A stretch of DNA of 46,188 nucleotides, counting the filler, from Sphacelaria rigidula (lineage: Eukaryota), in NCBI GenBank assembly GCA_964200075.2. It is 2 parts of 2 records of this genome, joined end to end, with 100 filler letters (N's around TTAATTAATTAA, not from the genome) between each part and the next. Parts side by side here need not be neighbours in the genome. Positions count along the whole stretch, not along the records: positions 23,147 to 46,188 come from CAXNAA020000290.1; 1 more part is not named here. One strand, 5' to 3'. Below the pieces are notes generated by a model. It saw nothing but the letters and a program-made list of their open reading frames with translations, did not search any database and was not told the DNA's origin. Shown here piece after piece: positions 23,047 through 45,397 of the stretch. Numbering within the stretch: position 1 is the first letter of the stretch; every line of letters begins with the position of its first letter. A program made the position numbers and the translations under genes.

Positions 23047-23146
23047 NNNNNNNNNNNNNNNNNNNNNNNNNNNNNNNNNNNNNNNNNNNNTTAATTAATT
23101 AANNNNNNNNNNNNNNNNNNNNNNNNNNNNNNNNNNNNNNNNNNNN
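23047..23146. other. Artificial contig-joining spacer (N44-TTAATTAATTAA-N44)
   Basis: Exactly 100 nt and symmetric. The central 12-mer puts stop codons in all six frames. Confidence 0.95.
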
Positions 23147-24158: not shown

Positions 24159-27100
24159 CTTCGCTACGCGTTCCATGTCATCTTGCGCCACGCGACCGGC
24201 GCAGAATAGGTTGCGGTCGGCGAAGAACTGTGTTGCCAAATCTCCCACCGGAAGCTTGGACAGGATGATATTTGCTCCGCTCGCCACACACCTGATAAAT
24301 TGTTCCGAAGATATAGTAGTGATACGAGAAATATTGTCAACGACCAAGACAGGAACATACCACACTTTCGAAAACGGAAAAGCACGGGCAGAGAATAGCC
24401 GTAACAAACGTCGATGCAGCAGGTGACAGCCCAGCTCGTGGAGAGAACAACCACGGACAACGCCTACTCGCCGTATTTGCTGGTTCTGCGTCAATACATG
24501 CTGTGTGTTCCCTACATGATAGAGGGAATCTCATCATTATAACGCACTCACGACCAAGTTTCGGAACCGTTAAACTTCGTTACCACTTGACTCACTTTTC
24601 GAGCTTGTCGTAGATAATGCTCCATTCTGCGTCCACGATCTCTTGGTACATGTCTGGGTCCGAAATTCGTACCTCCGCAGATTCCTGGTTCAAGCGAGAG
24701 ACACGAAAAGTATAGCATGGGATCGATGCTCCTGACTGGAACTTACGAGATGGAGCGTTCGTTTGACAAGTTGCACATCCGTCCCTCTTCCACGTTCGTC
24801 ACGAGCTAGCCGCCGGAGGCTACCGTGTGTACCACCCCCAGGGTGATAGCTCCTCGTGAGGGGGATGGTACACAACGTACAGGTCATTGCACCGCAACCC
24901 AACGGGGAACGGCTTCCTCAACAAGATGTTTGTGTGCCATGTCCACCTTCTCGCTCTTGAGCTCTAGTTCCACGTTCAGCAGAAGGATCTTGGGGCTGTC
25001 GAATGACTTGGGCTGCTGCTCGAATCCGGCGTAGCTGAACGTCTTCTTGAAGGCAACCCCTGTCACCAAGAAACTGTCCGTTACGCTGCCGCCCCCGACC
25101 TTTTTCACTCCCACCTACAGAAAGGACAACGTATCGTCGTTGTCCATAGCAACCACGAGCGAAGAGAAAAAAAAAAGACGAAAAAAAGAGTGCGATTGTG
25201 GCAAATGGCGAGGCAACACGCGTACAAGTGGAGGTGAGTACATGGACTATGGCAAACAGATACAGTGAGTCAATTATTATCGAAAACGGGACTTCCGTGA
25301 CGGGGAAATGATCATTCATCTTCCCGCTCCCAGCGTTTCTCATGATGCCCGCACAAATAATGCAAGATGCAACGGACACAGCATACCAGCAATACGAGTA
25401 ATCGTATGGAAAATAAAACTATCTGCTCCCGCGCAGTGCATTATGATCTATGATATTGGTTTTTCGAGTTTCCCTTTAGCAAGACTTTTCGTTCATGCTC
25501 ATCCTACGTATATCTTGTGGATAATGACCACCACTGGGTATCTTGGGGACCAGTCAACGTGCGACAATCAATCCGTCAATCGAGCATTGAACGTTGGCTT
25601 GAAATCAGTATGAGAAACGTGCCACAAAAAGGTACTATTATATTAATATCAATATCTGACTCGTACACATGTACTGCAACAAATCAGCTGCTGAATACCT
25701 GTGTCATTATTTTCGCTGCCCATTCGCACCGCTCAAATTTCGCTGTCACCTTGTCTTGTCGTGTTGTTGGCATTCTCCAATTTTTCATCAATTTTTTCAA
25801 CCCCTCCACTTCCCCTCCTCTCCTCCCAGAACGCGTCCGTAGTCTCAACCCATTCATCTCTCCACCAGTATAAACCGAATATCGAGCATTGGATGCTGAC
25901 CATCTACACTACCTACACTCCGGATATCAACACATCTGCCATGTGCTCTCGCGCCTCAATACTTTCCACGACCGAACCAAAATAACAAACTCATCCATAT
26001 TTCATCCATGCGTGTGTGTACTGGACATGGGCATGTATCTACTTACTATAAAACCTGGCATACCGTACAAGGGTATGAGGGAAACGATAGCGACACCGCT
26101 GTGTAACGTGTCACATCGTGCTGCTGCATTCGACACACTCCGATACTTCCCTCCTAGCATGCGCCACTGTGCGAGTATGATCATCGACATTTATCTCGGA
26201 CGATCGATAAACCCGACAGAAAGACAGACAGACAGGCAGCCGAAACCACAACCACTCACCAGGCTAAGGTCGAGCAGCTGCTGGTCCAGCAGCGACAAGG
26301 CCTCCACCACCATTGGCGCAAACAGGCTTTTCTGGGAAGATATGAGCTTCGAGTTCAACGCCGTCCCTGCACATCTTATCAGTACGTCTTTCGCCTGTAG
26401 CAAACCATATCCAAAATGGGGTCAGGTCAGGGTATCGTACCGTCGCCTTCCAGATGACCTGCTGTTAGTTGCTACACAGGTACACTGAGGATCTCGGGGT
26501 ATTACTGCAGAGGTATCGACGTGAAAACATCGAGGTGTAAACCGGACAAGATTCTCGACTAATACATCGACTATTCCAGGGGTGCCTGAAAAACTGAGCT
26601 GCTCTCGTGTGATGTCTCACCCTCGCCCGTACCTCCTTGTGCAAAAAATCTTTGAAAAGTAGTACGGCTGTCCGGCTTCGAACGGTGCGCATTGCCCCAG
26701 TCATAGTGATACAAGTGTGAGAAGGATGCGAAGCGTCGTCGGTAAAATAAATCGGGTGCGAAGATACTTCATAGGTGGTATGGATGCATGTGCATGGACA
26801 GTCCCGCTACGTGAATTGTACTCCAGGTTCTCACTGGACCCCTAGGGGGTCGGTTGAGGTGCGAAATCAATCAATCAACCAACGTTTTTCTTCATCCATT
26901 CAACGTCTCATCGCCTTCACCTTGAACGTGTACCATATTTGCCAAGCATGTCGAAGGTATAGTAACTACTTATCACTCCTTTGGGTGGTATGTGTCCATT
27001 GTCTCTCAGACCCACTACAAAACAGGCAGCAGGAAACACACGACTTTGCGGATATGTCTCACACCTTCGGAGACTACGACGCTTTTGGCATCTTTCCTGC

Positions 27101-30100
27101 TAGGGCATTCACACATGATTATCACGTGCGTCACGAACGTCTGAACTGGCAGTCATGGACGCACTGGAAATGATTAATCTAGTCAATTCGCAGTGTAAAA
27201 GTCAACGCTTTGACGGCAAAGCATTTGCAGACATTTATGCTGAGGGAGCATACGTGCATTACTTGTTTTGTCCCCTTTTCGAGTTTCCTTTGGTGAGTGT
27301 TTACGTGTGTCTACCTTGCATTTAATTATCAGGGCTATATTCCTAGCGGGGCAGTCAATGTGCGGCCATGAAACGATCAACCGTTGCAATCAGTGCAGGG
27401 ATATTGTTTGGAATATCGAGACTGTGTTCGCGAGACTATGCAACAGGCTGTCAGTACCGTATCGCACCGCACCATACCGTCCCGCACCCAACCCCCTTTC
27501 GTAAGAGGTTACACTCTCCCTGCCCCCACACCCCCTTAAGCGTGAACGATTGACTTTTGTTTTGGATCCCATGTTAGCTCCCCGGCTTCTTTTATCTCAA
27601 AGAGTCTACAGCTGCTCATCTAAGTTGCGATGATACTGGCATTCGAAATGAGCGTTCACCCGCTCGTGAAACATTATATATTTTGTCATACATGACCCGT
27701 ACACTACGCGCAACTACCCCCACCACTCTTTAGATACTCCTCATGGCCATGTTTGGAAGTACATGGCAAAACTGGGTCGGCTGTATTCTCATGCCCAACA
27801 AATGTCCGCGGTGATGAAGAAGAAAGTGCTGCCGCTTCCTCTAACGGAAAGTTGCAATAGCTTTGCGAATTCATGCATCCATACTTAGAACTTCCCTTCG
27901 ATATGCGCAATCCCCTCCCCCCTGCTCGTGTCTCTGAAGAGACGAAAATGGCAGACAGGAACAACGAAGCACAGTTGACGAGGTTAACGGCGGACAAAAA
28001 ACTTGTCCCAAAACAAGTGTGAAGCTGTAGCGAAGGCGAACGCTCACCTGTGCGTCGTCCACAGGTTTGACGGATACCGCCTCCAACCTGGCTACCGCAA
28101 CCTCGCAAGCTTTTCTTATCCCGCGGCAGATCACCTGCTTGTTACCAGATAGATAGCGCAAAGACGGCAAAAGAGTACCTCACATCAACGTGAAGTCAAC
28201 AACACCGCCGACAACATTCAGCAACAAGCCAAGAGATGTCGAGGCTCGCCTGGGGGTGGAGTCCATCTTCAACGAATGTCTTCACGTGTTTCAAGATCTC
28301 TCCTGCCAGGAGGACCACCGACGTTGTGCCGTCACCGACCTGCACAAGTCGTACACCACAAAAAAAGGCAGCAAGGGGCAAGGGGGGACTGAAACAAGAC
28401 AACTTTCACTGCCGAGATTCAAGGATATTTACCGCAGGGGGCGTTCGTATATTGGACGAGGCAAATCGTCTGGACAAGGTACACATTCCCGTAGATACCT
28501 ATTTGGCCTAAGAAACGGGGCATGATTGATGCTTCTACACTCATTTCTATACATTTCGGTAACGAAGTAGTCAATAAGGAGAACATAATTCAGTTCCGGC
28601 ACGACTCCTCCCCCGCCACACCAAAGCAAGTTGATAGCCCTTGCTGTTTTCTCATTCACGCGGGTGTTCCAAATATTTAGTTTACTCCAAGACAATCGAA
28701 CTAGTGCATTTTCTTACTACCTCAGCAGTACCCCTTGGAAGCCATTGGCGAACAACTCAGATCAGCATCTCTACGCTTCAAAACAACAAGCCTGGGCCGG
28801 GTTCCTATGATCCTTGGCGAGCGGCTTCTGCACGTTTCGTATAAGTCGGAGTGATAGTATAGTATTCATGAGTATTCTTGCCTTTCCCGCACGAGAACTA
28901 TACACCGCCAAATACGCGACAGTGATTGAAAAGAGAAAGCAAATAAGAAACAGGGATGTGTGGTCCTAGGAGCTCGAGACAACGCTAGAATGCGGACCAT
29001 GATCCCCATCTCTCGCGTGTAAAATGACAGCTAGGATCATCACAACGCGACCAGGTTAGGTTACCTGAGAAATATGTTTCTGCAATCTTGGACGGTAACT
29101 CTTTTGTCCCTCAACAATCGCAACACTCAGTCGGACTGGTGCCGTACTGTACTTTACGATAAGCCATGTTCCGAGCACCCTGACTTTGGAAACCTGGGAA
29201 GGTTTATTTATCTGGGCCAGGGATGGGGCCCCCACACGATCTTTGCAGTGACAACACACTCGGCAACAGTCCCCGCGCTGGTCGAAAAAATTTGCCTCGC
29301 CGTGATTGAGCCGGTCGCTCCCCGGCTTGTTCTTCATTATTCCACCAGCACATGGTCAACGCCGTGTCAGTGAAGGGCGAGCACTCGAGTCATTGCTCGT
29401 TGTGGGAAAAAATACTAGGGCGAGAACTTGAGTCATTGCTCGTTGTAGAAAAAATAATAGGGCGAGCACTCTAGTCATTGCTAGTTGTAAAAAGAAGTAG
29501 TGACTCGAGCACATGAGTCAATGCTCATTGTGAGAAGGAGTGATGACTCGAGCACACGAGTCATGCTCGTTGTGTTGTCAAAAAACATCCACGAATGCAC
29601 TCGTTTCGACGAATAAAGATTCGTTTGACGTGTGATATTTTGTCAGCACACGTTTTCTTTTTTCGTCAATCTATCGTTCTGTCTCGTCAGCGTAATTAAA
29701 ACATGACATTAACCCCTTCGAACATTCTTCAATTCTTCTTCCCCTACGTGGTGCATGCGAAACTTGAAGCGTGATAATTGCAATTTCTCCAAAGTGTCAA
29801 CTTCATCATTAATATATTTGATGCGGTAACGAAACTTACACTAACAAGTTTTTTTTTCTTTCATTCTTTCTGAGAGTCTCGATTTTCTCGTTTATCTCAT
29901 CAAAAACATGTACGCGGGAGAAAAATGACTGATGATTGTCTGAAAACACATGATATGTGTGTGTTGCCGTTCTATATGGCAGCGGAGGATCATCTATTCA
30001 GTTGTGATAACGGTTTTACTTTCTTTCACCAGATATCAATCAATCATCGTACGAGTCACGCCGGCGATAAAAATTGATGGACGTCATGCGTGACATATGC

Positions 30101-31575
30101 CTGCCTAAACGGCGTAGGGTGTCTTCGAGAGCTTGCAGCGACGAAGGCAGGGGAAGAGCCGACAGCAGCGCCAGATATTCTCGTGCCCATCGCAGGAGGC
30201 CATAGCTGCAGGCATCACGTGCCGTCCTTTGCCATCGAAGGCAGGGGAAGAGCCAATAGCAGCGCAAAATATGTCACGTATGACGTCCATCAATTAAGAG
30301 CGGATCCAAATTTCGGGGTTGATATCTGAAATGAGGTTCAAGTGGCTTTTTTTTTTTGTTGCAGGGATGACGCGAAACAGTTACACGGAGCGAAACCATT
30401 TTTCCCCCCAGGAGTACTCGTCCATGCCCAGAGTGTTCGTACCTCTGCGTCCTGGGACATGGAAATGTCGACGAGAGTCTTGGCTGCTGGGTGTGCGATG
30501 TCCAAGAGCTTCATTATGGTGGCGCCGTCGTTAGAAATGGTCACCTTCTGTCCGTCAAACACCAACTTGTCCATTCCTCTGGGACCCAGGGTGGATCGTA
30601 GTGTATCCATCACAGCCTGCTCGGGGTGAAATATGAGAGCACCATGTAGAGTCGAACCAGCCGAACGGCATGTACCGCGGAGGGAAAATGACTTTGCACG
30701 TCACACCCAGGGACTGTATGGTGTGCACTGGGCTACCGCTACAAGTACCCCACACGTAGTACTACAATGTACCACTGGTGCGCAAACAGGTATTGTGCCC
30801 GCTCAGTGTCCAGAGGCAGCCCACGTCTTGTTCAGATCAGTGCTTGGCACATCTTGCCCGTGTTTCGGTACACAAGACACTGGCTTTGCACTACAGTCAC
30901 TTCAGGTCAGTGCGGTCGGTGCAGGCCCTCTTACTCTCGGCACCAATGACTACCCACATACTTCCAAGTACAACAGTACGGTCACCTCACGATTGCGCTC
31001 GACGCATCAGTGTACGTCGCTCCTGTGTTCGCCCCACTACAACATGTGGTAAGTCTACGGTAATAACTGCACTCACTTCCTTGGCAGGCAACAGAGGGCA
31101 GGGTGGTGAAGCTACACAAAAAAAGCAATTGTTCTCGCGTGTTCTGTCGTCAGCCCTACTGGTCGCTATTTTTCGGTGAGTGTTCATCATAATACGCTGC
31201 AGGATTATCAACTTGTACTGGAACATGATCATGCGTCATCATACGTCTCACTGGCCGGTAGTCATTCGACGTGTTCCTCGTGTCACTCCACGGATCGATG
31301 GACGGAGGAAGCTCCTCCTGCCCCACTCTTTGTCCGTGACAGAAGTCAGCAAAATTGTTGTTTTCAAGACGAGGTTCGTGGCCACAGGAGGAAATGGTAC
31401 AATCAAGCGGATTTAATAAAAAATGAACCGGCTGCCGTTTTTCTGTACCATGTTCAAAATCATTCTTCACACTTGCCTGGCAGGCATTAATGTTGGAAAC
31501 TAGCTGCGCTTTTCCCTGACTGCTGTCTGTCCCCTCACGCAGCAAAATGATCCCCGGCTGATTCATGTATGACAT
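24159..31575 (-). CDS. CCT7: T-complex protein 1 subunit eta (CCT7), 5' half: exons 1-8, residues 1-325
   Basis: Exons (minus strand): 31575-31477 ([33 protein letters not shown]), 30616-30443 (...[11 protein letters not shown]...TISNDGATI...QDAE), 28339-28250 (VGDGTTSVV...HPQ), 28134-28048, 26394-26260, 25114-24947 (...[18 protein letters not shown]...[11 protein letters not shown]), 24684-24596, 24291-24159 (...[22 protein letters not shown]...RVAK). All phases are compatible. [14 protein letters not shown] and GDLATQxFADR are eta-subunit signatures. Confidence 0.96.
29374..29575. repeat. Minisatellite, about 43-bp unit x5, in CCT7 intron 2
   Basis: AGGGCGAGCACTCGAGTCATTGCTCGTTGT(A-rich) units start at 29374, 29417 and 29459, with degenerate copies near 29502 and 29545. 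Each has a CGAGCA...TGCTCG inverted repeat. Confidence 0.85.
30072..30295. mobile_element. Small TIR element (MITE-like, 224 bp) with internal direct repeat, in CCT7 intron 2
   Basis: AATTGATGGACGTCATGCGTGACATAT ... ATATGTCACGTATGACGTCCATCAATT (27 bp, 1 mismatch). CGAAGGCAGGGGAAGAGCCxAxAGCAGCGC occurs twice inside. Confidence 0.75.
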
Positions 31576-32264
31576 GGCTGCGGCCGGATGTTCGCCGAGC
31601 ACAGATGTTACTGTTCAGCCCGCGCCCTGCTGGAAACGAAGGGGGAATAATCGAGGCAGGTACGAGAATGTTGGGGTTAGAAACTTGTTCGGATCCTTCT
31701 CGGTTCAAGGTTCAAGACGATGTTCGGCATCTCCATGCGAGTAGCGGTGGAAGCCCTCGATTACATTCCATGCAACCCCGGCTGGCGACGTGCTACTACT
31801 GCAGGGTTAGGCTTCTTGGGAAAAGTCGCAGCGGAACGACCAGCACACGAGGTTGGCGCATAAGGACTTCCCCCGACAATGTTGGCCTCGCCGCCCACAC
31901 CATCATCTACAAAACGGCCCCGCTCGCTGAAACTCAGCAATCTGGGCCCAAGCTGAGCCAGCGTTCCATCGTGATATCTGGTTTCAGCTTCATGTCATGT
32001 ATTCTCACTATTAATAGCGTTTTTCACATTATCGCCAACGGCTTTGACGAGCTTCGTCTCCACTATCGACTATCGTGGATATCTTATTGCGGTGCACATG
32101 GCAGCGTCGTTCGACTTTCAAAATGTGTGCGTCATGCTTCTCATGTTTGTTTTTTTTGCCTTCAAATACGGCTCTAACTTCACGTGCATGTACTCGCACC
32201 CCCAAGGCCAACATAGTGAGGAATCCTTCTTCGAAGCCTAAGGTCGCTCCATGTAGCACACAGA

Positions 32265-32675
32265 GAGAAAATCCTGTAAAACGCTGTTTTTGGTCTTTCT
32301 TCGTTGTTTTATGCCCTAAAAGAGAGCTAGGCGTAGTTTGACACGGTGGAATGACTCACTGTACTTATTCGAGCGGTTCCAGGACATCTTCGCGTTTTCT
32401 GGTGGCCGCAGTTTATTTGGTCGCCAAACAAGCATTTTTGTCCAGGGACGGTCAAGTCCAGAGAAATATGGCAGTTCTTTCTACACTTGATCGTTCTTGC
32501 ACAAAAAGTCAAGTTTGACCAAAATAGAAACTGCGGACATCGGAAAACGCAAAGATACCCTGGAACCGCTTAAACGAGTACAGCAAGTCATCCCAAGGTA
32601 TCAAACTCTGCCTGCCTCTGTTTTAGGGCGTGAAACGACGAAGGACCAGAAAAGTATTTTTACGGGACTTTATTC
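32265..32675. repeat. Degenerate foldback element (family F), about 700 bp upstream of the CCT7 ATG
   Basis: The ends are inverted (ATCCTGTAAAA...GCCCTAAAAGAGAG versus CTCTGTTTTAGGGCG...TTTTACGGGA). The interior is homologous to 43578-44042 (e.g. TGGAACCG...CGAGTA.AGCAAGT.ATCCCAAGGT.TCAA). Confidence 0.8.
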
Positions 32676-35600
32676 TTGTTTGCTGTAACGAGCGGTCTAA
32701 GGAAGTCGGCAAGTCGAAACCGAAATAATGACAAACCAGCACCTCGGCGGTCCTGGTATTGAGTTGTTCAGAGTCCCGCTCCAACGAGGGTCAAATCCCC
32801 CATCAATAACGCGCCCACATGTGTCCATTTGTTAGGATTGGCGCCCATGTGACTCGATATGTGGCTCCATTCTTCAGGTTGCCAATCTGCGAGCACTTGA
32901 AGGGTATATGGCCAGCCCCTTCGGTTCGCTAATACTGCACTGCCTGTACTGTACTGTGCTGACTGGGCTGTTTTTTAAAAAGGTAGCCAGAGTGAGGTAA
33001 GGTAGCATGCGGGTACGGCTCAGTATATCAGGTTTTGTTACATGCTCAGTATTTTGGACAGTCGGTGCTGGAGATACCCACCTAACCCCAGGTACCCTGG
33101 GCACTGCACCTCTCCTGAATCACTTTTGGATCCTACATCGGATGATGAAGTAAAGTACCCTTGATATTTATAGTTTCCAAGTTCTTGTGCCAAAAGCTGC
33201 TGGGGTCGACTAACGAGGAATGAGAGTGGTGGGGGTCTCGCTTGTAGTCGGAAAAAATTGGAAAATATCAATAGGGGGTGGTATACCCCGTCACACCAAA
33301 GTATCATGCTGTACCTCAAAGACCAAATCGATGTCAAACCCTTGGGGGTGCCCGCGGCTAGTGTTTCTCTTCGGTAATACGCGGTACTTTGTTAACAGCA
33401 AAGGTGTGCAATCACAGACGCTGTGCGACGCGGTATTTGAAAGCCCTACTGATGATTGACCCAAGGTACTGACGTTCCGACCTGAACACAACACGAAATC
33501 CAGGTTACAGTTGTTGTGGATCAGCACAACACAAATGATGCACGGCATGGCCGCAACGAGAACTATTTGCCCCAAGCGCGACAGGATCACTCTCCATCAC
33601 GATCTCAGCTAATCATATGCCGCGCTTTATGCTCCTGTCGTGGACTGTTACCGGTGAGGTACAATCATTATGTTCAGCATAACCATCTCCAATGCAAGCT
33701 CCAGTTCGACCGTGTGGTGCAGTACCCGAGTATTGTACTGTGCGGTACTCTGCATGGTACAGCGGTGTAGTTGTACGACTGTGTACGACTGTTAAGTCAA
33801 AAACCGCGCCCCCGAGACGGCGTAGACGGAAAATATCGTGAGCTCTAGGTTTGCTCCCTATCAACACAGAACTGCAGAGCTGATGAGAGGCTTTCGCAAG
33901 TGACCTGGAATTTATCGAAGTTACGACAAAGCATCGACTACCATCAGCTCGTTTTTTAATCACGTGGAGTGAAGCACACTGTACTTATGGAGTCGACCTT
34001 GTGCGAACTCACAAGACGATAGCACATGGGCCACAGGATAAGCGGGCTGTGGCAACGTATTTGACTTTTTCTCCCAACACAAATAGATCGTCAGCACCAG
34101 GGAGTACAGAAGTGAGATCAAATGTTGTCATCCATGGCTATAAGCACACTCACGTTCGAGAGCAGGGATCTTCAACTCCACCTCTTGTCACGCTGTGCTG
34201 CCCGCCGAAGGATAGTGCCAAATACACTGTTAGTCTGGAGTATGTTCTGGTTATCAGTTACGATATCTGTATACATACTCAGACCCGTCGCGTGAGGATA
34301 CCCGTTTACGTGAGAGATAACGGTGGACAAGAATGAAGAATACTGGAACACGCATAAATATCTTCTCAGAAAAGTAATGTGTCCTATATACTATATACCA
34401 TACAAAAGGGAACCTCACATCAAGTATGCGTGAAAACATGCATTTACTTTTGTACAAAACGTTGAAGGTTTTGGGACAAGAGTATGGTAATAGGTGCCGC
34501 GTAGCATTCCCTTCCCTGGGTGTTGGGCTTTGCTGCTGGAGCAGGTCGGTACAACGAGACAGGCCCGCCGAACGCTAGGGGGCTGCCGGGACTTAACAAG
34601 TGAGTTGAAGAAGATCAAAAGATTCCGTTTTGAAGAAGTATAGTTCTTGACTATTTTACCACTCGATAGTGCAAATATCGGAAGTGCTTTGTTTCGTAGT
34701 TGCAGAAAGCGTGGTCGCAAAATGATATTTTCTTCCATTCACAGCCGAATCAGGTGCGCTCTCCGCCTAAATGGCGGCACTGTTGTAGTAGCCTCCACTG
34801 TTGTATCTACCAAATCAGTTGTGCTGATGCAGCCCTGCACCGAATCTCGTGATCCACCATGCGGCACGACAGTGAATTGCACTACAAAAACTACAGGTAC
34901 AGCCACACAATTTGTGCTTGATCGTTTCCATTAGCACGTACGCGGTGCTGCCCGTATCTGTCCGTTATACTGATACTGCACTGTTGTGCACCAAATCTCC
35001 CGTTTCGAACTTCGGCACGGCAGTACAGCAGAACAGTACAGTACTCGTATTAATGAGACATGAGTTCAGAGTATGAGCACTGCACCGTAGTTCGTGATGA
35101 GCTGTTTCCATCAGCATGCAGCTGACCACGATCATTGCACCGCCGGTCTCTATTCTGTGCATGTACCTTGAGAAACGGACCGCCTCTGCTGTCGCCAAGC
35201 AACATCTCGACGGGCATTTCCAAGGGGTGTAAATGATATTGCACAGTGAGGCCTTGTCGTCTGGAAAACACCGATAATTTCATACGCACACTCAAGTTCT
35301 CTTCAGCGCAGGAGCACGTCCGCACTCGCTGGTGCAGCCATTGCTAGGATACAAGGCGGTGCGATACTGGTGTACCTACTATCCCGGCGTATATACTGAT
35401 GTGCAAGTAGCTCTGTCATGCAAAAATGGATCGTTTTGGTAAATTCACTTTGTGCCAGACGTTGCTCCCACGTGCTGGGAGGCCTTGTTGACGTGTCAGG
35501 AGCATCAGTCCCAGCCGCCGAGCAGCAAGCACCCTCATCCTGAACTCTCTACTGTTCATGCGGAACAGTTTTATCCGACCAACACACCAGTACTTACCCC

Positions 35601-36910
35601 AGCAGCCCAAACACTAGCGATACTATTCCAAATTTATTGAGAGATATATCCTATTCTGAAATCTCCGTTGACGGCACTGTGCCGTGCTCAATTTTCTGCA
35701 CCGTCCTGAAGTACTTTGCTGCGGCATATCCTGACCATCTCCGCAGGGGCAAATCGCTTAATTGAGTGACGGGGAATAACACCCCCTGCGGGAGGTGAAG
35801 AGTTTTGCCATCTCAACTTTTTCGAAAACCGCCCCCTGTCTCGCGGCGGAAGCTGAGTAGGAATCATGGATAAATATCAAGATGTACATCTCCGGCGTGC
35901 AGGCCACAACCACCACGACAAAATCGAGCTGAAAACCAGTTCTGTACAATTATTTTCCTGTAGCCATTCCCGAGGTGGTATGGGGACATCCGCGATCCTC
36001 AAGGCTACGTTTTTGAGGTTCTTGAATTCAATTGGTTGAAAAAATCACCATTATTTATTTATGTCAACCCTTCGACAACGAGCGTCGCCTCGGAACAACT
36101 TCACTAGTTGGCGGTCAAGGGATATCTGAGGTTTTCCAGGGGGGCGGGGGATGGTTTTTGAAGGGAGGTCGGGGGCCTGTTTCCACGACAGCCGAAAAGC
36201 TCACCGTGTCAACCAGGTGTGTATGAAAGTTTCCCGAGGAAAATTACAAGCGGAAGGGAGCACGAGAAGAGCGGAGTGACCATTCTCGCCAATTACGGCT
36301 ATCAAAATGGTCGTTTTGTTCCCCTACAGGTAGACTACTTCGCTGTTCAGTGTTTAGCCGTATTTCTCATTTTGGTACTGATAATTCAACCATCGATGAT
36401 ACGGACACAGCATCGAGCCTGATACCCTGCTCGTGATCAATGGCGCCTGCCTGATTCCTCATGTTTAGCCACCATAGCTTCACATCGTAGTGTCGTTGTG
36501 GAACACTAAGCAGAGACATCAACAGCATGTAGTCACCTGTTTAGTGGAGAGCAATGACACGCTCACTATTTCTTTCCGTGGTGTCCAGCGAAGACATAGA
36601 GCACACATACTGACTGCAGGGTGAAAACCGGTCATGGTTTCTCCGGTACTGTTTTCTATGTAGAGGCAAATGTCCCCGATTAAGATACGATAAAGGCATC
36701 TGACGGGAAAAACTGTTTTCGTGGGAACTAGGGCACGTAGAACAATGCTCAGGGTATCCGGAGAGAGAAGTCGATCATCCGTCATCTAAGCGTTCCAAAA
36801 TAAAATAACTGGAGTATATCGCTCAATTGACGTGAAAGATGCAGCCAAAATACCCTCTGTTCCAATTAAGGTATACTTACGTAACTGTTGATCCCTCGTG
36901 ATTAGAGACG

Positions 36911-37900
36911 TTTCAGACCTTCTCCTTTGGTACAAATGTTCATGAGATCAGTGCGGTCCGTTTTGCAGAATAAAAGAAAAATAATTGAATGCGGGGACGA
37001 CAGTGGTTATCCCCTGGTTTTCGGAACAAATTTGGTCATTTGAGTCTGTGTTTGGCAACGCCGTACTCGACGAAAACTACACTTTTTTTCTCAACCCATT
37101 AAAATACGTCTTGACAGTAATCTCCCATAATTTGGTGTTCATGGGTCACGATTAAGGTACTCGCTGCCGCACGTTGAGTGATGCCCCATAGTCACTCATT
37201 TTTTCACCAGAAATCGACGGTGACGACGAAAATGGAACACGTGGTCCGTTTCAGACCTTCTCTGATACAAATGTTTATGAGAGTAGTGCGGTACGTTTTG
37301 CAGGGAAAAAAGAACAGTTGAATGCGGGGATGATAATTGCCCATCCCCTGGTTCTCCGAACAAATCTGGCCATCAAATCTGTGTTTGGCAACGCCGTACT
37401 CGACAATTACATTCTTATTTTCTGTTTGTAACCCATCGAAATACGTTTTGACAGTAATCTCCCCAAAAAAGGTGTTCATGGGTTACGATTAAGGTGCTCC
37501 GACGCACGTCGAGTGATGCCCCCTAATCACTCATTTTCCACCAGAAATCGACAATGATTACGAAAATGGAACACCTGGGATGTTCCGAATCTCCTTTGGC
37601 ACAAACCTTTACGCATCACAATGCATCACTTTCCGGCACCAGAGAAGGAAAAGGGTCATATCGGGGATGAAATTGACCTTTTCCCGGATTCTCGGAATAT
37701 TTTTGGGCATTCTTCTCAGTGTTTGACAACGTCGAACTCGACGAGCACTTTCGCAGAGCTCTATGCTTCCCTTTATTTAGAGCTATCCAACCGATAAGAA
37801 TTTGTTTCAACATGATTCTCGCAAAACTTGGTGTTCGACGGATGTGACTTCGTTACGCCCACACAATCTTTTCACCAAAGTCGACAACGACTACAAGAAC
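36911..37900. repeat. Tandem repeat of about 335-bp units (2 close copies plus 1 diverged)
   Basis: TTTCAGACCTTCTC at 36911 and 37249. TGTGTTTGGCAACGCCGTACTCGAC and CACCAGAAATCGAC recur at about the same spacing. A third degenerate copy spans about 37583-37900. Confidence 0.85.
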
Positions 37901-38399
37901 GACAGGCGCAGCTATCAGACAACAGCGAGCACGAAACAGAGCAAACCAAGCAGCGAAAACTTCGCCAAATCTTCCCCGGCGATGACCTTCCACGCTGTGG
38001 TCTCTTGCGGAGTAACACCTACGACGAAGATATCCACTGGTGGCGTGTGTAGGGGGGGGAGGGCGGGCGGGGGTATTGCGTGATACTGCTGTACGGTACC
38101 GAGTAGTACGTCGAGTATCGGGTGGTTCGCACAGTACTGGCACCACCTCAAATGACGGTACTTACCATAACTCCAGAGAATGTATAGGCAGTACCTCTAA
38201 AAAGAGGAGTCGTAATCAACAGAACACGCCGAGACAGCAATGAGCAGGCAAACGCCAAGTGCTGCATTGACAAAGAATACAGCGTGAATGACGCCGTTTC
38301 AAATGCAGCATAACTAATTGGGAGCAGACAAACATCACTCCATAGCAACAGCTTCGGGTTCTAGCTCTAGATATATGCGTTGTATCACCCCAACGAAAC

Positions 38400-38927
38400 G
38401 GCTCGTAATAGACTGTAAGGCATCTGTCTCGTCAGTGTTCCATATGTGGTCGGTTGCTGGCTCCTTGTCCACATCCAGGCCGCGTAAAACTCCCGCATGC
38501 AGTCTTCCTCGTCAGCCACGATCCTGTCGGTCTCGTGGATGTGGCTGCTGCGCTCCGCTAGCCGCGGGTGCCTCTGAAGGAAGAAGTCGAGCAATTTTCG
38601 ACCGGGCCTAACGGCCGGGTCCCATGGCACCGGTCGGTTGTCGCTCCAGAGTGCCATAACCGCCTGCTTCAGGCCATCTCTATTTGGGGCCAATTGACCA
38701 GCTGCGACGAACGTCAGCGTATCTTCGATGGAATGTTTTTCCTCCGTCGACAGTACAACATCCGGGCCAACCCTGCCAGCTATGCTCACGCTACCACTGA
38801 CACGCTCCTGCAGCGAACCAATGGAGATGTGAACGATCTACGTAGAAGCACGGAAGGTCATGCGACCGCTGCGTACCGCTTCTGCGGCCTCTACTGAACG
38901 TTCTGGGCCCACCCTTGCTCGCTGCAT
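38400..38927 (-). pseudogene. pogo/Tigger-like (Tc1/mariner superfamily) transposase relic
   Basis: The minus strand reads SVEAAEAVRSGRMTFRAST*IVHISIGSLQERVSG (pipsqueak-type HTH with a stop). It continues VVLSTEEKHSIEDTL...PGRKLLDFFLQRHPRL (CENP-B/Tc5-type HTH). After a frameshift comes HIWNTDET, the first DDE aspartate motif. The rest of the catalytic domain is not recognisable. Confidence 0.8.
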
Positions 38928-39287
38928 GCTCAGCAGCCGATCGACCTAAAAGTTGTTATTGGAGAAAGACACACGCGCTTTTGCGCAGTGCTGTGTGATA
39001 ATGTCTTCTGATGCTTTAAGCACGTGCAGGAGCTCAAACGAAGCGTCATGCTCTTGTGCACACTCAGCAAGGAACAGAATTGAAAGCAAACAATATTTCG
39101 CGGCGTTATGAACGATTAAAAAACTCCATCCTGATTGGTACTGTATCTTGAAAGGGACATTTACTTCTAGGTGTCAAAGCACCCACATGGTTACGTGAAC
39201 GGCGTTTGGCGAGAAATGAGTTGTTCGGTACCCCAAATGTGGGATAGTCCATGTCAGTCCACCTGCGGGGGGGTCGCTGTCCAACGC

Positions 39288-40819
39288 TTTACCCTTTTGG
39301 AACCCTCCCCTCCTGTCCCCTGGCCAAACGCCTTATTATGAGAAGCCCTGACGAAGAGGAAAACATGGTAACAGAATAGGCCGACGGCAACCATTTTTAT
39401 AATGGAAGCCCGGAGAACAATGTCTTCCCTGGAGAATTCGGGTTAGGTTTGTCCAATCATACCACGCAACGGATGAAGTGTGTCCAATTATATCCATCGA
39501 CAATATTCAGCAAAACCACCATGAAACATTCCATTAAAAAACATAGCAATGGGCTCCAGGGTCCGACCTGGCACGTTTGTATATTAGCATTTGTACATAA
39601 GGGAAGCACCGCTTTGACGGGCTGCAGCATCGGGTGGCGAGTTTGCCAAGCCACACCGTACATACAGCACAGTATGACTGAACCCAGCGAAATCCCGCCA
39701 CCACGTGTGGAAGGCACAGTGGGTTGTGCGGGCCGTACATGGCGGGTGTAATCGCAGGCGTCCGAACAGGCGATATACATGTACACGGGAGGCAGCCGAC
39801 GGACACCGCCTACAGCAATCAGGCCAGATGAAGAACATTACAGTCAGTAAATACAGTAGGTTACAGTATTGATTTGCGGCTACACTCCGTGCAAGATGAA
39901 TATGGGCATGTCGTGAAACGTCGGCCACAAGAGTAGACGGCACGAGACGATAGCGGTAGCCGGCGTCATGAATCTCATGCAGCATGAAGTATGTCTATGC
40001 AACGATCGGGAACGATCAACCCGCGATATAGATGTGGTGGGGCAACTGTGCCTTTCGCTACGCCGTTGCGTAATAGTCAGCCCGAAGTATGATGTTGTCG
40101 GCACGTACTTGGCAGAGCGCAGTTCTGTGCATGCCCCGCTGTTCACAGAGATATTTTTAAAATACAAAACAGACATGACACGAAGCAGTAAGGTATCACC
40201 CCTGGGGCGACGGCACTTGGCAGACTCTACACCACAGAGACGGTGCATAACTGCAGGGTACATGGCGTCTGCGTTGCCTCTACCCATTTTTCAAAGGGCG
40301 GGATGGTGCTGTCGGAACGTGCATGGGCGCGATGTTGTGCATGACGTGAGTCTGCAGTCGAGATTACCTCAAAGTGCTGTAAACACACCCAGTACTGTAC
40401 AGGGCAGTGTCGCAGCACCCCCGGCGGCACGGAAAGGTGACTGCCTGGGATTGTATACCACCCACCAGTTTATCCATTTAGCGAATGTGCCATCGGCGTT
40501 GCCCGTGTTGCTATGACACTGCAAATAGTATAAACTGCAGCGGGCAGGGCGTGCAGGTCAGGCCGGAAGCATGCTTCACAGAGGCCTGCCGCGCACTGTG
40601 GCCGAGCAAGGACCTCATGAGTGTAGAAGAAAAAGTCGGCGGATCAAAGCAAGAAAAATAGGAAACCTTCTCTTGTTCCACTTGTCACTCGAACGGGTCT
40701 GAAGAATACGCGTTTGGCCAAAATTGTTGCGTCTAAGCTATGAACCATGAACCATATCTTGCTCAAAAATCGTCAATTGCAAATGATCAATTTTCCATTG
40801 TGAGTTCCGAAAGGGTTAA
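39288..40819. mobile_element. piggyBac-like non-autonomous element, about 1.5 kb, abutting the family A copy
   Basis: TTTA|CCCTTTTGGAAC (39292) ... GTTCCGAAAGGG|TTAA (40815), an 11/12 TIR match. It shares the 39288-39291 tetranucleotide with the neighbouring element. Confidence 0.55.
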
Positions 40820-41080
40820 TGTCGTTCTCCGTGCTATGCTCAACGTCTAACTTGCGCAGAGTGGAGTGTACAACTCGTCTGACCTCCATGCCTAGGTGAG
40901 TGGCCACTGAAAAATGTGGCGGCTCTGTCTCCGTCACAGAGCTTTGAAAACGTGCCGTTCCGGTGAGATGAGTCAACTTTGAGCTAACCTCTTCCCACCC
41001 CCCCCCTCTCGTGCGCTGCTGTGGTGCACTTTTTTGTTCGCTTGCTGTATTGCTGTTGTTCATGGGGTGATTTGGAGCAG

Positions 41081-44000
41081 TTTATGGAAGAGTCTCACCG
41101 AAGTATCCACGACTCCCTCATGATCGTCAAGCGCTGTCTCAAGAACCGAGAGGTACAAAGTAGAGTTGCTGACACGTGGACACGTTACGTTACATACAAA
41201 ACAGAGTTGCATGCCACATATCGCGTTGATGGAGTAAGCGCTGGTAGAATGCGTGTATTGTACTGCAGGTGCCGTCCTTCATGCCAAAACTACGAAGACT
41301 AGGAGTACTGACTGACAGCAAACGGTGTTCGAGTATTACAGTTCATTTCCTTCTTGGGCTTGTTTCAGTATGTTGTGACGCTTGAATGAACTTTTATGTG
41401 TGGTAATATGCACACTCCCACAAAACAAATCCCAAGCTGTTTGACACCGATTTTTTTTTTTTTCTCACTCGTGTCAATGGTACGGTACGGGATGCGTCTA
41501 TGTGTGTCGCGGTTAGGTGGTGGCCGGGGGAGGGGCGATCGAGATGGAGCTGTCCAAGACCTTGAGAGATCACTCCAAGACCATCAAAGGCAAGCAGCAG
41601 CTCATCATGACGTCGTATGCCAAGGCGTTAGAGATCATCCCGAGGCAGCTGGTGAGACGGAACATATCATCGAAACACAAGATGGAGTGGAGCAAACTAG
41701 TTCGTATTCGGCCTGATGGTGTGCATGCGGAAATATTAGTTGTGTAATCCTGGTAGATGTTGGCGGAAATCATTTGAGCTTTTCTGATGATTTCTGCGCA
41801 GATGCTTCCGTCTTTGCAGCCCCCCTACTCTGTCCCACTTTCGTGCCGTCGTCTCCTCCCGCCTGTCTCAATGAGCTGAACATGGTGGACCTGTGTTTCA
41901 TTGATGACTCTATGAATCCCAATACCACCCTCAAATGCTGCGCCCTGCACGTTGTACCTGGTTGGTCTTACGGCGGTTAGGACGAAGTTGAGGGTAAGGC
42001 TTCAACTCCCAGCATAATTTTTTGTTGGTGCTGATGTACATCTGATCTCCGTTCTAGAGAGCGGGAAGACGTGATCAGCAAACATCGATTCAGGACAGTC
42101 GACGCCGTGCAGGGGTGCTGATCCAACCTGCACTGTTTCATCATTATTATCACTGTGATTCCCGCACATTGGTCCGATCTTGCGAATCCGTGGTCACAGA
42201 CGAAGACTCGCTTTTTCAAAACCGTCCCTGCTATACGTTCCAAGACATATTCCCAAGAGTACAGAGAAGAAGAGAGACAGCACGAAACCCGGTGAGAAGT
42301 AGCTCCCCGGGTTCAGCGAGGAGAAAGAAGAAACAAACAGCAACGCCGGGTCTACCAAAAACGTACACCGATCGAAAGGAAGAGGAGATAATAAAAGACA
42401 AAACAAGATGAGACAGGTGACACGGGGAGATTAGCATGGCCACTATGTCAATGTTCAACTCCAAAACAACCCCAGGAGATGCGATGACAAAATTCAAAGC
42501 TTGCACCGACAGGAGAGAAACGGGCTGGTTCCTCGAGGCTACGGACTCGTGTCGAGCCAGGGCGGATACTGAAGAGATGACACAAGAAGGGTACTGTTTA
42601 TTGTCTCTGCCCCTATCTCGTCAACCCCCCCACACCTTGAACACATACATGTTGTCGAACCTCAGGCGGACAACGCTGGCTTTGATGCGACGGATCTGCT
42701 GAACAGACTGCGCCAAAAGCACGCCACGGCAGGGGAGGCTGGCAAGTGGTTTGGCGTCGACGTGGACACCGAAGGTGTGTTGGAAGTCGTGCTGCTCTCG
42801 TTGGGGGCAGTTTAGGCGCAGTCCCTGTTCTCTCTAGCTTTTGATTTCACCTGGAAAACGAAGGAAAAGACGAAAATATGACAGAAGCGACTCTTTTCAT
42901 TTCAGTATGTGAAGAAAACGCTGTAATGTACGAGCTGGGCCAGCCCAAGAAGGGATTCAAGCTCTCAAAGCGATATCTCAACGACATGGACGAGCTGGGC
43001 CGTGATCCGCATATCGTATTTATCGTCTAATCAAGGGGAAGGTGCCCACCTGCTCAAATATCTGGGCCAATTTTTTCACTTTGATTGAACCTCATGTCTA
43101 GTAACGCCTAGACTAAGCTGATATAGCGTCCACACTAGAATCTATATCAAACCCCGAACGATCGACTAAGCGGGTGATGGCGATTTTTGTCGTGGAACTT
43201 CCCTGGAGCACGGGGAGACGATAGATACCCTCACCTTCACCTAATTCGTAATTCATCTCGAGATATGGCGCACATAAATTTTCATACTAAAATCAGTATA
43301 TTACGAGCAGATGCACTCGATGACCCAAATCTGGATATCGCGTCTCAGTTTTTGGGAGTTGTGCCGTAAAATTTGGTATAGAGAACCGCTAATGCATGAT
43401 GTAATAAAAAAACAAAGCTTTTCCGTTTTTTGTCGTTTTTTTTTTTTTATTTTTTTGGTTTTTTAGGGGAGTTTTGAGGAGAAATGAACGTTGCTCTTTA
43501 GCCTTCTCTCAATTTTTCAGCTCAATTTTTAGAATTTTGATTTGAAACTTGGCATAGAGAACGGCAGAGGTATGCTGAGGCTACTTCTCATGTATCAGGA
43601 GATAAATGTTGTTGAAGAGTGCATTTTTTGGCCCTTCTCTGTGGTTTTTACCCCGAAAAGAGGGCTAGGCGGATGCTGACACCTTGGAATGACTTACTCT
43701 ACTCGCCGAGGCCGTTCCAGAGCACCTCTGCGTTTTCCGTATGTCACGGTTTCCTTTTTGGTCGAACTTGCATTTTCAATAACGAACAGTCAAGTTACCA
43801 AAAAACGCCAGTTTTTACCTTGTTTTCTGATAACTTGGCCGTTTGCTATGTAATTTTAGCCAAGAATGGAACTGTGACCTACGGGAAACGCACACCTGCT
43901 CTGGAACCGTCTCAGCGAGTAGAGCAAGTGATCCCAAGGTGTCAACTTCCGCCGAGCCCTCTTTTCGGGGGAAAAACGACGGAAAAGGGCCAAAAATGCA

Positions 44001-45397
44001 CTTTTCAACAAGATTCATTTTTTGATACATGAAAAGTAGCCTGAGAAAAGAAAAAAATGGCCCTTAATTTTTTTCTGAGAGGTTCGGGCGTTGTCGTAGA
44101 CAAATGGTCGTTACCATACTAAAACGCCCTCAATCAGTAAAAAACCAAAAATAAAACCCAACCTCACCCGTTTTTCCTGGTTCATCATGACCTAGCGAGG
44201 TCCCGCACAAAGTTTCAACCCACAAACACCTAACGTGGGCCCATAAACGGCCTGCAAAATACTGTTCCGAATTTCCGCCGGCCCGGTTTTTCAACGGAAA
44301 ATCCGCACTTTTTTCTTGGAGTTGAACACTGAAATTTGGTACAACAATGAACAGGGCATGAAGAAGAGCTGTCTGTGAGGTCCCGAATTTTTTTTTTCCA
44401 TGAGTTGAGGGCATTTTACTAAAACCTGAAGACTGATTATTGCTCTTAACTCATGAAAAAAACAAAACTTTCGGGACCTCACAAACAGCTTTTCTTCATG
44501 CCCGGTTGGTTTTCCATACCCATTTTCGCTTTCCACCTCCAAGAAAAAAAATGGCAAATTCGCCTGCAAAGTACAAATCCGCTTGTAGGCTGGCCCAACC
44601 TGCATATTTATGAGGTGGCGTTGCCTTCTACCGCGGAGAGTTTTTGCAAAGCAAGGCTTTTTCCCCCCCGAGGAAAATGAGTCCGCCAGAAACGACATCA
44701 AGAATAAGAGTGTAATCTGTCTTCCAAAACAAGCTCACATGGATGTTAGGCCTACCTCTCTCTAGCCTTTGGTTCGTGTTTATGCGGAATTGGCAGGCCG
44801 GTTGACGCTTTCCCGTGCAATTGCGATATCGTCGCTTTTTCGCAGATCCTGGTCCTGCTCAACCCCGTCCATGCTCTGAAATGATTGCCGACCGGTGTGC
44901 ACGTTGTTTCGACTTTGGTTTGGTAACCCGCAGCTTACTCCGCAGCTGGGGTTCTTGATATATTCTTCATATACGCACGTTTGTGGTGCACCCTTTCACT
45001 TGCCAGCCTTAGTCTGCAGCAGGGCAACATGGGATCTCATGTGTGTGTGCTGTATGTTGTCTTTATATTTTCGCACTGGCTGTAGTTCGTTTCGCTTTGC
45101 AATACTGTACCACCAACACCACATGCCGTTTTTCATCGTACACCTTGATGTCGGAGTTTCTTGTGGTGACACTAGGGCGGACAGTCGTGTACTATACGTC
45201 CTGCTCCCAACACCACCGCAGCTCAGGTTTTCGATGTACCTTGTATCCGGGGTGTGTCGTCTGGCGTGGCAGGCGTGTGTGATACGTTCGAGTCGGGAGT
45301 ATGGGAACCTACGATCAACAAGCGTAACTCTCTGCGCTCGGCCACGGAGGCGGCCTGTCTCATCCTGTCCATCGATGAAACTGTCAAAAACCCGCAG
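41081..45397 (+). CDS. CCT7: T-complex protein 1 subunit eta (CCT7), 3' half: four exons, 147 aa; last exon not found in window
   Basis: Exons (plus strand): 41081-41152 ([24 protein letters not shown]), 41517-41651 ([14 protein letters not shown]...GKQQL...ALEIIPRQL), 42666-42774 ([20 protein letters not shown]...WFGVDV), 45273-45397 ([42 protein letters not shown]). All are GT-AG with compatible phases and no stops. Confidence 0.95.
43578..44042. repeat. Long foldback element (family F), about 465 bp, intronic in the CCT7 3' half
   Basis: AGGCTACTTCTCATGTATC...TTGTTGAAGAGTGCATTTTTTGGCCCTT pairs with AAGGGCCAAAAATGCACTTTTCAACAA...GATACATGAAAAGTAGCCT. Pairing continues to a short central loop near 43810. 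Confidence 0.88.
44295..44562. repeat. Second foldback palindrome (about 270 bp) in the same intron
   Basis: GGGCATGAAGAAGAGCTGTCTGTGAGGTCCCGAA...CATGAGTTGAGGGCA versus TGCTCTTAACTCATG...TTCGGGACCTCACAAACAGCTTTTCTTCATGCCC. The outer arms are TTTTTTCTTGGAG / CTCCAAGAAAAAA. Confidence 0.85.

What the first reader, a model, noticed from the sequence alone, without database searches (positions are those of the whole stretch)
24159..45397. CCT7 gene split into two intact halves on opposite strands (candidate trans-splicing, inversion or misassembly)
Seen: exons for residues 1-325 lie on - and point left. Exons for the later part (FMEES...KNPQ) lie on + and point right, starting 9.5 kb from the ATG in a divergent arrangement. 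The halves do not overlap in protein sequence, both have clean splice sites and no stops or frameshifts, and no N-gap separates them. Known: CCT7 is an essential subunit of the CCT/TRiC chaperonin, so a full mRNA must be made somewhere. Trans-splicing between opposite-strand exons is documented (e.g. Drosophila mod(mdg4)). Inference: a gapless misjoin in the repeat-rich 31.6-41.0 kb interval is the most parsimonious explanation. If the layout is real, a housekeeping mRNA would have to be built by trans-splicing, or this is an inversion allele or a partial duplicate.
Basis: partly seen in the sequence, partly recalled or inferred. Interest (0 to 1): 0.8.

Follow-up and report, generated by a model that had tools for sequence, protein, structure and literature searches.

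The report
Split chaperonin gene, probably an assembly error
A brown-algal gene for an essential protein-folding subunit looks cut in two and flipped in this assembly, but the cell makes one normal continuous message from it and one exon is missing, so a faulty join in repeated DNA is the likeliest cause.

Summary
The layout is in the sequence as described. Eight CCT-eta exons (codons 1-325) run leftward on the minus strand, 31575 to 24159. Four exons (148 codons, QFMEES...KNPQ) run rightward on the plus strand, 41078 to 45397. No N lies between them.

- 55 residues that sit between the halves in 15 of 15 brown-algal orthologues are nowhere in the window.
- The "gap" at 23047-23146 is an artificial six-frame-stop concatenation spacer. 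The piece holding the gene therefore starts at 23147, 1012 bp past the exon-8 donor and inside a high-copy repeat.

One RNA-like run holds a single 2545-nt contig, identical to the window, that carries exons 4-8 and 10-13 and is flagged as an opposite-strand joint at 24158|41078. Both halves lie at single-copy depth in three DNA runs. No DNA contig bridges 36.1-40.8 kb, which is high-copy repeat.

- **Best reading (about 0.8):** an inverted misjoin or wrongly oriented block, with the middle exon orphaned between repeats.
- **Real inversion rescued by trans-splicing (eri-6/7-like):** not excluded, about 0.04.
- **Partial duplicate or pseudogene:** rejected.

Reads spanning the interval are the missing test.

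The parts
24159..31575 (-). CCT-eta exons E1-E8 (codons 1-325): E1 31575-31477, E2 30616-30443, E3 28339-28250, E4 28134-28048, E5 26394-26260, E6 25114-24947, E7 24684-24596, E8 24291-24159. Introns 1 and 3 are GC-AG, the others GT-AG. E8 ends in phase 0 with donor AAG|GTGGAG.
   Evidence: TIGR02345 matches; own profile; RNA contig joints in X6; splice sites and phases.
41078..45397 (+). CCT-eta exons E10-E13 (148 codons, QFMEES...KNPQ): E10 41078-41152, E11 41517-41651, E12 42666-42774, E13 45273-45397. E10 starts in phase 0 after acceptor ...TTTGGAG|. The E13 donor CAG|GTGCGT is inferred only.
   Evidence: RNA joint 41150>41515 and a loose end at 42780 that reads into 45279 onward.
23047..23146 (.). 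Artificial spacer: 44 N, the palindromic six-frame-stop linker TTAATTAATTAA, 44 N. It marks a concatenation of separate assembly pieces, so adjacency across it carries no evidence.
   Evidence: That such linkers are used for concatenation is general knowledge, not a tool result.
23147..24158 (-). Start of the scaffold piece and the first 1012 nt of the intron after E8. 23147-23206 is a high-copy repeat (the 23147-23813 bin reaches word depth 83508 in X1); the rest is single copy. It holds no exon for the missing 55 residues.
   Evidence: DNA contigs of X1 and X4 start at 23188 and that of X3 at 23222. No profile or tblastn hit.
31576..36095 (.). Single-copy sequence upstream of E1, interrupted by a 466-bp foldback element at 32237-32702 (arms 71% alike). 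The core of the foldback, 32327-32436, is high copy and unbridged. No Pfam domain found; X6 RNA depth is 0 to 0.7 in the three bins from 33152 to 35152.
36096..40789 (.). Mosaic of high-copy repeats (bin word depth 7e3 to 8e4 in X1, against about 70 for single copy). Three single-copy islands lie at 37050-37404, 37624-37943 and 38863-39283. A 334-bp tandem sits at 36988-37675, with a weaker third copy reaching to 37858. Repeat-family junctions fall at 36940, 38462, 38850 and 40655. This is the stretch in which a misjoin or a real inversion breakpoint must lie, together with 32327-32436.
   Evidence: No Pfam family at E<=0.1 in 21 of the 22 ORFs of 31.5-41.1 kb tested; the one match (Herpes_UL14, E 0.052, below cut-off) is on an ORF at 32029-32355, outside this stretch.

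Best explanation
The gene is an ordinary, single-copy, expressed CCT-eta (CCT7) gene of a brown alga. Its split, divergent layout in this record is most likely an assembly artefact.

The block carrying the upstream region and exons 1-8 (about 23.1-36.1 kb) is bounded by high-copy repeats on both sides. It has been joined in the wrong orientation to the block carrying exons 10-13, through the repeat mosaic at 36.1-40.8 kb or through the foldback at 32.3-32.4 kb.

The 55-codon middle exon (or exons) probably sits on a short unique island between transposon insertions in introns 8 and 9. That island was left out of this scaffold, which is why the scaffold ends 1 kb after exon 8.

- **Shown:** the exon layout, the missing exon, the spacer, the repeat boundaries, single-copy depth, and one mRNA contig holding both halves.
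- **Inferred:** that the true DNA is collinear.
For: 1. The missing exon lies exactly between the halves. Profile positions 327-377 and P0006 residues 326-380 have no match in any frame of the window. Yet 15 of 15 brown-algal sequences spanning the junction have exactly 55 residues there.
2. The piece starts at 23147, directly after a six-frame-stop concatenation spacer, inside a high-copy repeat and 1012 nt past the E8 donor. The assembly is therefore demonstrably broken inside this very gene.
3. In 3 of 3 DNA runs laid (X1 and X3 from one study, X4 from another), contigs end at the same repeat borders. No listed contig bridges 36.1-40.8 kb or 32327-32436.
4. One X6 contig (2545 nt, depth 788, 0 other letters in its two listed pieces, E5 and E6) carries the E4/E5, E5/E6, E6/E7, E7/E8 and E10/E11 splice joints plus the joint 24158|41078 on opposite strands. 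A normal continuous mRNA therefore exists.
5. 12 of the 22 brown-algal CCT-eta models in the two protein clusters are marked 'partial', some on contigs of 816-1459 nt. Draft brown-algal assemblies commonly break in this gene.
6. Base rates (general knowledge): orientation errors at repeats are common, and protein-coding genes rescued by trans-splicing after an inversion are extremely rare.
Against: - No read-level discordance was seen, because the runs were available only as contigs.
- The join is gapless.
- The window's repeat copy at 39.4-40.6 kb differs from the family consensus at many places, about 30 of them listed and mostly transitions (table 3). It looks like one genuine diverged copy, which an assembler could traverse correctly.
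- No inverted-repeat pair was found in the window that would explain a simple misjoin. The 60-nt repeat at the scaffold start has no copy in the interval.
- Flipping 23147-36100 in place would put exon 8 next to 36.1-40.8 kb, but the missing exon is not there. A simple one-block flip is therefore not the whole story.
Confidence: 0.8

Rival explanations
1. The layout is real and the gene is rescued by trans-splicing. A transposon-associated inversion turned exons 1-8, or 1-9, onto the other strand. Two pre-mRNAs are transcribed divergently and spliced in trans into one CCT-eta mRNA, as at the eri-6/7 locus of Caenorhabditis elegans. The 55-codon exon would lie left of 23147 on the minus strand, on another assembly piece.
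For: - One RNA contig identical to the window holds both halves.
- Both halves are at the same single-copy depth as their flanks in X1, X3 and X4, and no contig of 90% likeness or more points to a second copy.
- The join is gapless, and the repeat copy next to exon 10 looks like one genuine diverged copy.
- The interval is full of mobile-element remains.
- Precedent: an inversion induced by Polinton insertions and repaired by trans-splicing at eri-6/7 (PMC11414722, abstract read).
Against: - It needs the missing exon to come from outside the window.
- No direct or inverted repeat links the two intron sides that could pair the pre-mRNAs, although the relevant intron is not in the window.
- The scaffold breaks inside the gene.
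- Very low base rate.
- One full-text search listed no paper with trans-splicing and brown algae in its title or abstract; I did not open the listed papers.
Confidence: 0.04
2. The inversion is real in the sequenced individual but is a broken allele. It would be a heterozygous or culture-acquired rearrangement, with the mRNA coming from an intact collinear allele that has identical exons.
For: Exon-identical alleles cannot be told apart by the contigs, and the breakpoints would lie in the unbridged repeats. The independent strain X4 (about 1% different) shows the same contig pieces.
Against: - An essential gene broken in one allele would be exposed in the haploid generation of a brown alga (general knowledge).
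- Depth on both halves equals that of the flanks, which is uninformative here.
- No evidence of two junction types was seen.
Confidence: 0.06
3. The two halves are relics: a partial duplicate or pseudogene pair, with the working CCT7 elsewhere.
For: None beyond the odd layout.
Against: - There are no stops or frameshifts in 473 codons.
- The halves are 93-97% identical to brown-algal orthologues.
- All tested splice joints are used in RNA contigs with depths of 788 and 1166, and the two listed pieces of the 788-depth contig show 0 differences.
- Depth is single copy, and no second copy of 90% likeness or more was laid.
Confidence: 0.01

Closest known systems
CCT-eta / CCT7 of brown algae (e.g. 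P0123 Ectocarpus siliculosus, 580 aa; P0006 Pylaiella littoralis, 580 aa)
   Same: Codons 1-325 are 92.9-95.3% identical over 322-325 aligned residues in 9 of the 10 models that align over all or nearly all of them (Ascophyllum P0135: 90.5%). The 148 later codons are 95.9-97.3% identical to the 16 models that cover all 148. TIGR02345 is the best family for each exon that scored.
   Different: The window lacks the 55 residues 326-380 and the C-terminal tail 529-580. The two parts lie on opposite strands.
eri-6/7 of Caenorhabditis elegans (inverted 5' part, mRNA repaired by trans-splicing)
   Same: 5' exons and 3' exons lie on opposite strands with transposon remains between them, and a single mRNA holds both (PMC11414722 abstract).
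   Different: At eri-6/7 the genomic inversion is established and direct repeats flank the inverted part. Here no spanning DNA evidence exists, no such repeats were found, and an exon is missing from the record.
mod(mdg4) of Drosophila (constitutive trans-splicing, some 3' exons on the opposite strand)
   Same: Exons on opposite strands are joined in one mRNA (PMC13490949 and PMC4387717, abstracts in the search listing only).
   Different: mod(mdg4) uses many alternative 3' exon sets and defined intronic promoting motifs. Neither was looked for here, and there is a single 3' set.
Orientation or misjoin errors at repeats in draft assemblies
   Same: Breakpoints are confined to high-copy repeats that independent contigs do not bridge; the scaffold ends in the same gene; a small exon island is lost.
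   Different: The join carries no N, and no read-level discordance could be examined.

Membership tests
CCT-eta (NCBIfam TIGR02345, chap_CCT_eta) | The eta model is the best-scoring CCT subunit model | tested here: met
   TIGR02345 is the top family for 11 of 12 open frames. The twelfth (exon 4) had no hit at E<=1.
CCT-eta (NCBIfam TIGR02345, chap_CCT_eta) | Full-length match above the curated cut-off (669.2 bits over a 523-position profile) | tested here: inconclusive
   Only single exons were scored (27-96 bits each). Together they cover profile 2-321 (except 118-146, where exon 4 did not score) and 373-522; positions 322-372 have no counterpart in the window. The joined protein was not submitted.
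Trans-spliced split gene (eri-6/7 type) | One mature mRNA holds exons from both strands | tested here: met
   X6 contig of 2545 nt with joint 24158|41078 'opposite strands' plus five splice joints. It is a contig from one run, and that the run is RNA is the tool's guess. Exon-only depth and spliced joints support the guess.
Trans-spliced split gene (eri-6/7 type) | The opposite-strand layout exists in genomic DNA (spanning reads) | tested here: inconclusive
   No listed DNA contig of X1, X3 or X4 bridges 36.1-40.8 kb or 32327-32436. Only contigs, not reads, were available.
Trans-spliced split gene (eri-6/7 type) | No collinear copy elsewhere in the genome | tested here: inconclusive
   Depth is single copy on both halves, and no second copy of 90% likeness or more was laid. 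No whole genome is held.
Trans-spliced split gene (eri-6/7 type) | Repeats or complementary intron sequences that bring the two pre-mRNAs together | tested here: not met
   No direct or inverted repeat links 23147-24158 with 31.6-41.1 kb. The intron after the missing exon is not in the window, so the test is incomplete.
Assembly misjoin or orientation error | Candidate breakpoints lie in repeats that independent assemblies cannot bridge | tested here: met
   Contigs of 3 of 3 DNA runs stop at 36095/36385 and resume at 40779/40790, with only small islands between.
Assembly misjoin or orientation error | Clipped or discordant reads, or long reads showing another arrangement | not testable with these tools
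   All four runs were served as contigs, and the read laying cap is one call.

The most novel reading that the evidence does not exclude
The inverted layout is real. A transposon-driven inversion split the essential, single-copy CCT-eta gene of a brown alga, and the cell rebuilds the mRNA by trans-splicing two divergently transcribed pre-mRNAs. I know of no reported case of this eri-6/7-type repair in a housekeeping gene or in a stramenopile; that is from memory, supported only by one search listing.
Probability: 0.04. Interest if true: 0.85.

Novelty: not a real feature. Interest (0 to 1): 0.2.

Why it matters
If the layout is an artefact, as I judge, the value is practical:
- This scaffold has a wrongly oriented or misjoined block of about 13 kb.
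- It has a lost exon, and it carries concatenation spacers that must not be read as adjacency.
- Gene models here will give two truncated CCT7 proteins.

If it were real, it would be a rare natural case of an essential gene kept alive by trans-splicing after an inversion. It would also show that brown algae can splice protein-coding pre-mRNAs in trans.

The question is now narrow. A contiguous mRNA and single-copy status are shown, so only DNA evidence spanning about 4.7 kb of repeats is missing.

Tried and rejected
- **Whole-genome search for a second copy:** no genome is held for this window.
- **Earlier notes of this scan:** none.
- **RNA holders:** The look-up of sequencing runs listed no holder on record as RNA. 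X6-X9 are guessed to be RNA. Only X6 was laid, and 4 of the 11 listed runs were laid in all.
- **Exact 30-mer of exon 8 in metagenome contigs:** 0 matches, so no independent contig shows what follows exon 8.
- **The search for related loci with P0006 in metagenome contigs:** 233 stretches matched a pattern, 142 encode relatives and 80 were kept. All are distant (59-65% identity in the best segment), and each is listed as one match on one strand. None is a close relative, so nothing was learned about this lineage.
- **Protein database:** none of the 120 best of 5382 hits, and none of the 22 members of the two brown-algal clusters, is identical to the window. The organism's own protein, with its middle exon, was not recovered.
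- **Pfam on ORFs:** of 22 ORFs in the interval, none matched except one chance-level hit (Herpes_UL14, E 0.052). Of 109 ORFs in 1-23046, only one matched.
- **Whether the 2545-nt RNA contig carries the 55 codons between exon 8 and exon 10:** the output does not say. The joint has 'both' = 0 and starts exactly at 41078. A direct E8|E10 junction would let the terminal AG of E8 also fit 41076-41077. This hints that other letters lie between, but it rests on my reading of the tool's conventions, so I do not count it as evidence.
- **Simple model rejected:** a single inverted-repeat pair that explains both the scaffold end and the join. No such pair exists in the window.
- **Parts of the stretch without X6 cover:** not used as evidence.
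Full report
**What is in the sequence.** The window has 46188 bases. Its only N runs are at 12781-12790, 23047-23090 and 23103-23146. I scanned stop-to-stop open frames of 23-46 kb against NCBIfam. The CCT-eta equivalog TIGR02345 was the best family for 11 of 12 frames tested. These cover profile positions 2-321 on the minus strand and 373-522 on the plus strand. The twelfth frame (exon 4) gave no hit at E<=1. I then built a profile from 44 full-length homologues and ran it with all filters off over every six-frame open frame of the window. It gave the same picture, picked up exon 4 (12.2 bits), and found nothing better than noise (i-Evalue 32-49) for positions 327-377.

**Exact exons.** RNA contig joints and splice-site inspection fix the exons.
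- Minus strand: E1 31575-31477, E2 30616-30443, E3 28339-28250, E4 28134-28048, E5 26394-26260, E6 25114-24947, E7 24684-24596, E8 24291-24159.
  - These are 975 nt, 325 codons, with no stop.
  - E8 ends in phase 0 at AAG|GTGGAG.
  - Introns 1 and 3 are GC-AG.
- Plus strand: E10 41078-41152, E11 41517-41651, E12 42666-42774, E13 45273-45397.
  - These are 148 codons, starting in phase 0.

1. A piece of the protein is missing.
   - The nearest proteins are brown-algal CCT-eta. P0006 (Pylaiella littoralis) is 92.9% and 97.3% identical to the two halves. P0123 (Ectocarpus siliculosus) is 94.8% and 96.6% identical. None is identical.
   - In 15 of 15 brown-algal sequences that span the junction, exactly 55 residues separate the end of the first half from the start of the second.
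   - A permissive tblastn with P0006 residues 316-390 finds only the ends of E8 and E10 in the window, and nothing for 326-376.
   - The C-terminal tail (P0006 529-580) is also not found before the window ends.
2. The gap at 23047-23146 is an artificial spacer.
   - It is 44 N, then TTAATTAATTAA, then 44 N.
   - The 12-mer is its own reverse complement and puts a stop in all six frames. From general knowledge, this is a spacer used to concatenate separate assembly pieces.
   - The piece that holds CCT7 therefore begins at 23147, 1012 nt beyond the E8 donor. What lies left of the spacer is not evidence of adjacency.

**Public reads.** Eleven runs were listed for 24100-34099, from three studies. 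None is on record as RNA, and four are guessed to be RNA. I laid X1 and X3 (one study), X4 (an 'algae metagenome' of another study, about 1% different from the window) and X6 (guessed RNA, a third study) on 23147-43146. All were available only as contigs.

- **X6 behaves as RNA.**
  - Its depth is high on exon-bearing bins (97-346) and 0-12 in most purely intronic bins; a few intron bins that hold repeats are higher.
  - One contig of 2545 nt (depth 788) has 0 other letters in its two listed pieces. It carries the joints 26393>28047, 25111>26257, 24683>24946, 24288>24593 and 41150>41515, and a joint 24158|41078 flagged 'opposite strands'. It runs on from 42780 into letters that lie at 45279 in the window.
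  - A second contig (depth 1166) joins E1 to E4.
  - One mRNA contig therefore holds exons 4-8 and 10-13, made from exactly these exons.
  - The output does not say whether 165 further letters lie between E8 and E10 in that contig. By homology they should, which is an inference.
- **The DNA runs show single-copy contigs.**
  - In X1 (depth 64-79) they lie at 23188-29237, 29583-30101, 30370-32326, 32437-36095, 37050-37404, 37624-37943, 38863-39283 and 40790-42982. X4 shows nearly the same pieces, and X3 shows shorter ones.
  - Depth on both gene halves equals that of the unique flanks. No contig of 90% likeness or more suggests a second copy.
  - Bins in 35.8-41.2 kb reach word depths of 7e3 to 8e4, which means high-copy repeats.
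  - No listed contig bridges 36.1-40.8 kb, the core of the foldback at 32327-32436, or the repeat at the scaffold start.

**The interval itself.**
- Self-comparison shows a 466-bp foldback at 32237-32702, with a relative in intron 12 (43624-43788).
- A 334-bp tandem lies at 36988-37858.
- A repeat at 36062-36667 is shared with 14741-15375.
- No inverted or direct repeat links the scaffold's left end to the interval.
- Of the 22 open frames of 86 to 208 codons that I took from the interval, none matched a Pfam family at E<=0.1, apart from one chance-level hit.
- Loose ends mark repeat-family junctions at 36940, 38462, 38850 and 40655.

**Interpretation.** Three readings survive.

1. **Artefact (about 0.8).** The 13-kb block bounded by repeats on both sides is joined in the wrong orientation, and the 55-codon exon is stranded on a small island between transposon insertions.
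   - This explains four things at once: the assembly breaks inside the gene, exactly the exon between the halves is missing, no independent contig crosses the repeats, and the mRNA is normal.
   - Draft brown-algal assemblies often break this gene: 12 of 22 cluster members are 'partial' models.
   - Against it: the join is gapless; the repeat copy beside exon 10 carries many private, mostly transition differences, as a genuine single copy would; and a simple in-place flip would predict the missing exon in 36.1-40.8 kb, where it is not.
2. **A real inversion repaired by trans-splicing (about 0.04).** The precedent is eri-6/7 of C. elegans (PMC11414722, abstract read).
   - It is compatible with the mRNA and the single-copy depth.
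   - It needs the missing exon from elsewhere, lacks pairing repeats in what can be seen, and has a very low base rate.
3. **A real but broken allele beside an intact one (about 0.06).**

A relic or duplicate reading is rejected by the expression and depth data.

**Comparison with relatives.**
- A scan of metagenome contigs with P0006 kept 80 loci at 59-65% identity. Each is listed as one match on one strand, and none is close enough to inform on this lineage.
- An exact exon-8 30-mer found nothing there.
- One search listed no paper with trans-splicing and brown algae in its title or abstract. I looked at the listing only, and the listed papers' own mentions of the terms were not opened.

**Verdict.** The most likely cause is an assembly error, and the exotic reading remains open at a few per cent. 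It can be settled by DNA reads spanning about 4.7 kb of repeats, or by finding the contig that holds the missing exon.

Noticed in passing
window 23047-23146: The spacer is 44 N + TTAATTAATTAA + 44 N, exactly 100 nt. It is a palindromic six-frame-stop linker, so this record is a concatenation of assembly pieces. Neighbours across such spacers should not be read as linked.
   Followed up: partly
window 30617-31476 and 28135-28249 (minus strand): Two of the seven introns of the first half use GC-AG boundaries. Both are confirmed by RNA contig joints.
   Followed up: yes
window 32237-32702; 43625-43996; 44309-44548: Foldback (palindromic, MITE-like) elements. One lies upstream of exon 1 (arms 71% alike) and has a high-copy core at 32373-32414. 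A related one sits in the intron between E12 and E13 (arms 82% complementary). A further hairpin lies at 44309-44548.
   Followed up: partly
window 29374-29573: A 43-nt tandem array (4.7 copies) in intron 2 sits in the bin with the highest word depth of the stretch (about 3e5 in X1). Many variant joints appear in all three DNA runs. It is a very abundant satellite-like or mobile-element motif.
   Followed up: no
window 20902-21165 (+): The only Pfam hit among 109 open frames of the left piece is a metallo-beta-lactamase-fold exon (PF00753, E 2.1e-08). It probably belongs to a gene that runs toward the spacer.
   Followed up: no
window 38385-38837 (-): A 150-codon open frame lies inside the high-copy region with no Pfam match. 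A repeat-family junction at 38462 falls inside it. It may be a remnant of an unclassified mobile-element protein.
   Followed up: no
window 45398-46188: After KNPQ the frame meets a donor-like CAG|GTGCGT. The Gly/Met-rich C-terminal tail seen in brown-algal orthologues is not found before the window ends, so at least one more exon should lie beyond 46188.
   Followed up: partly
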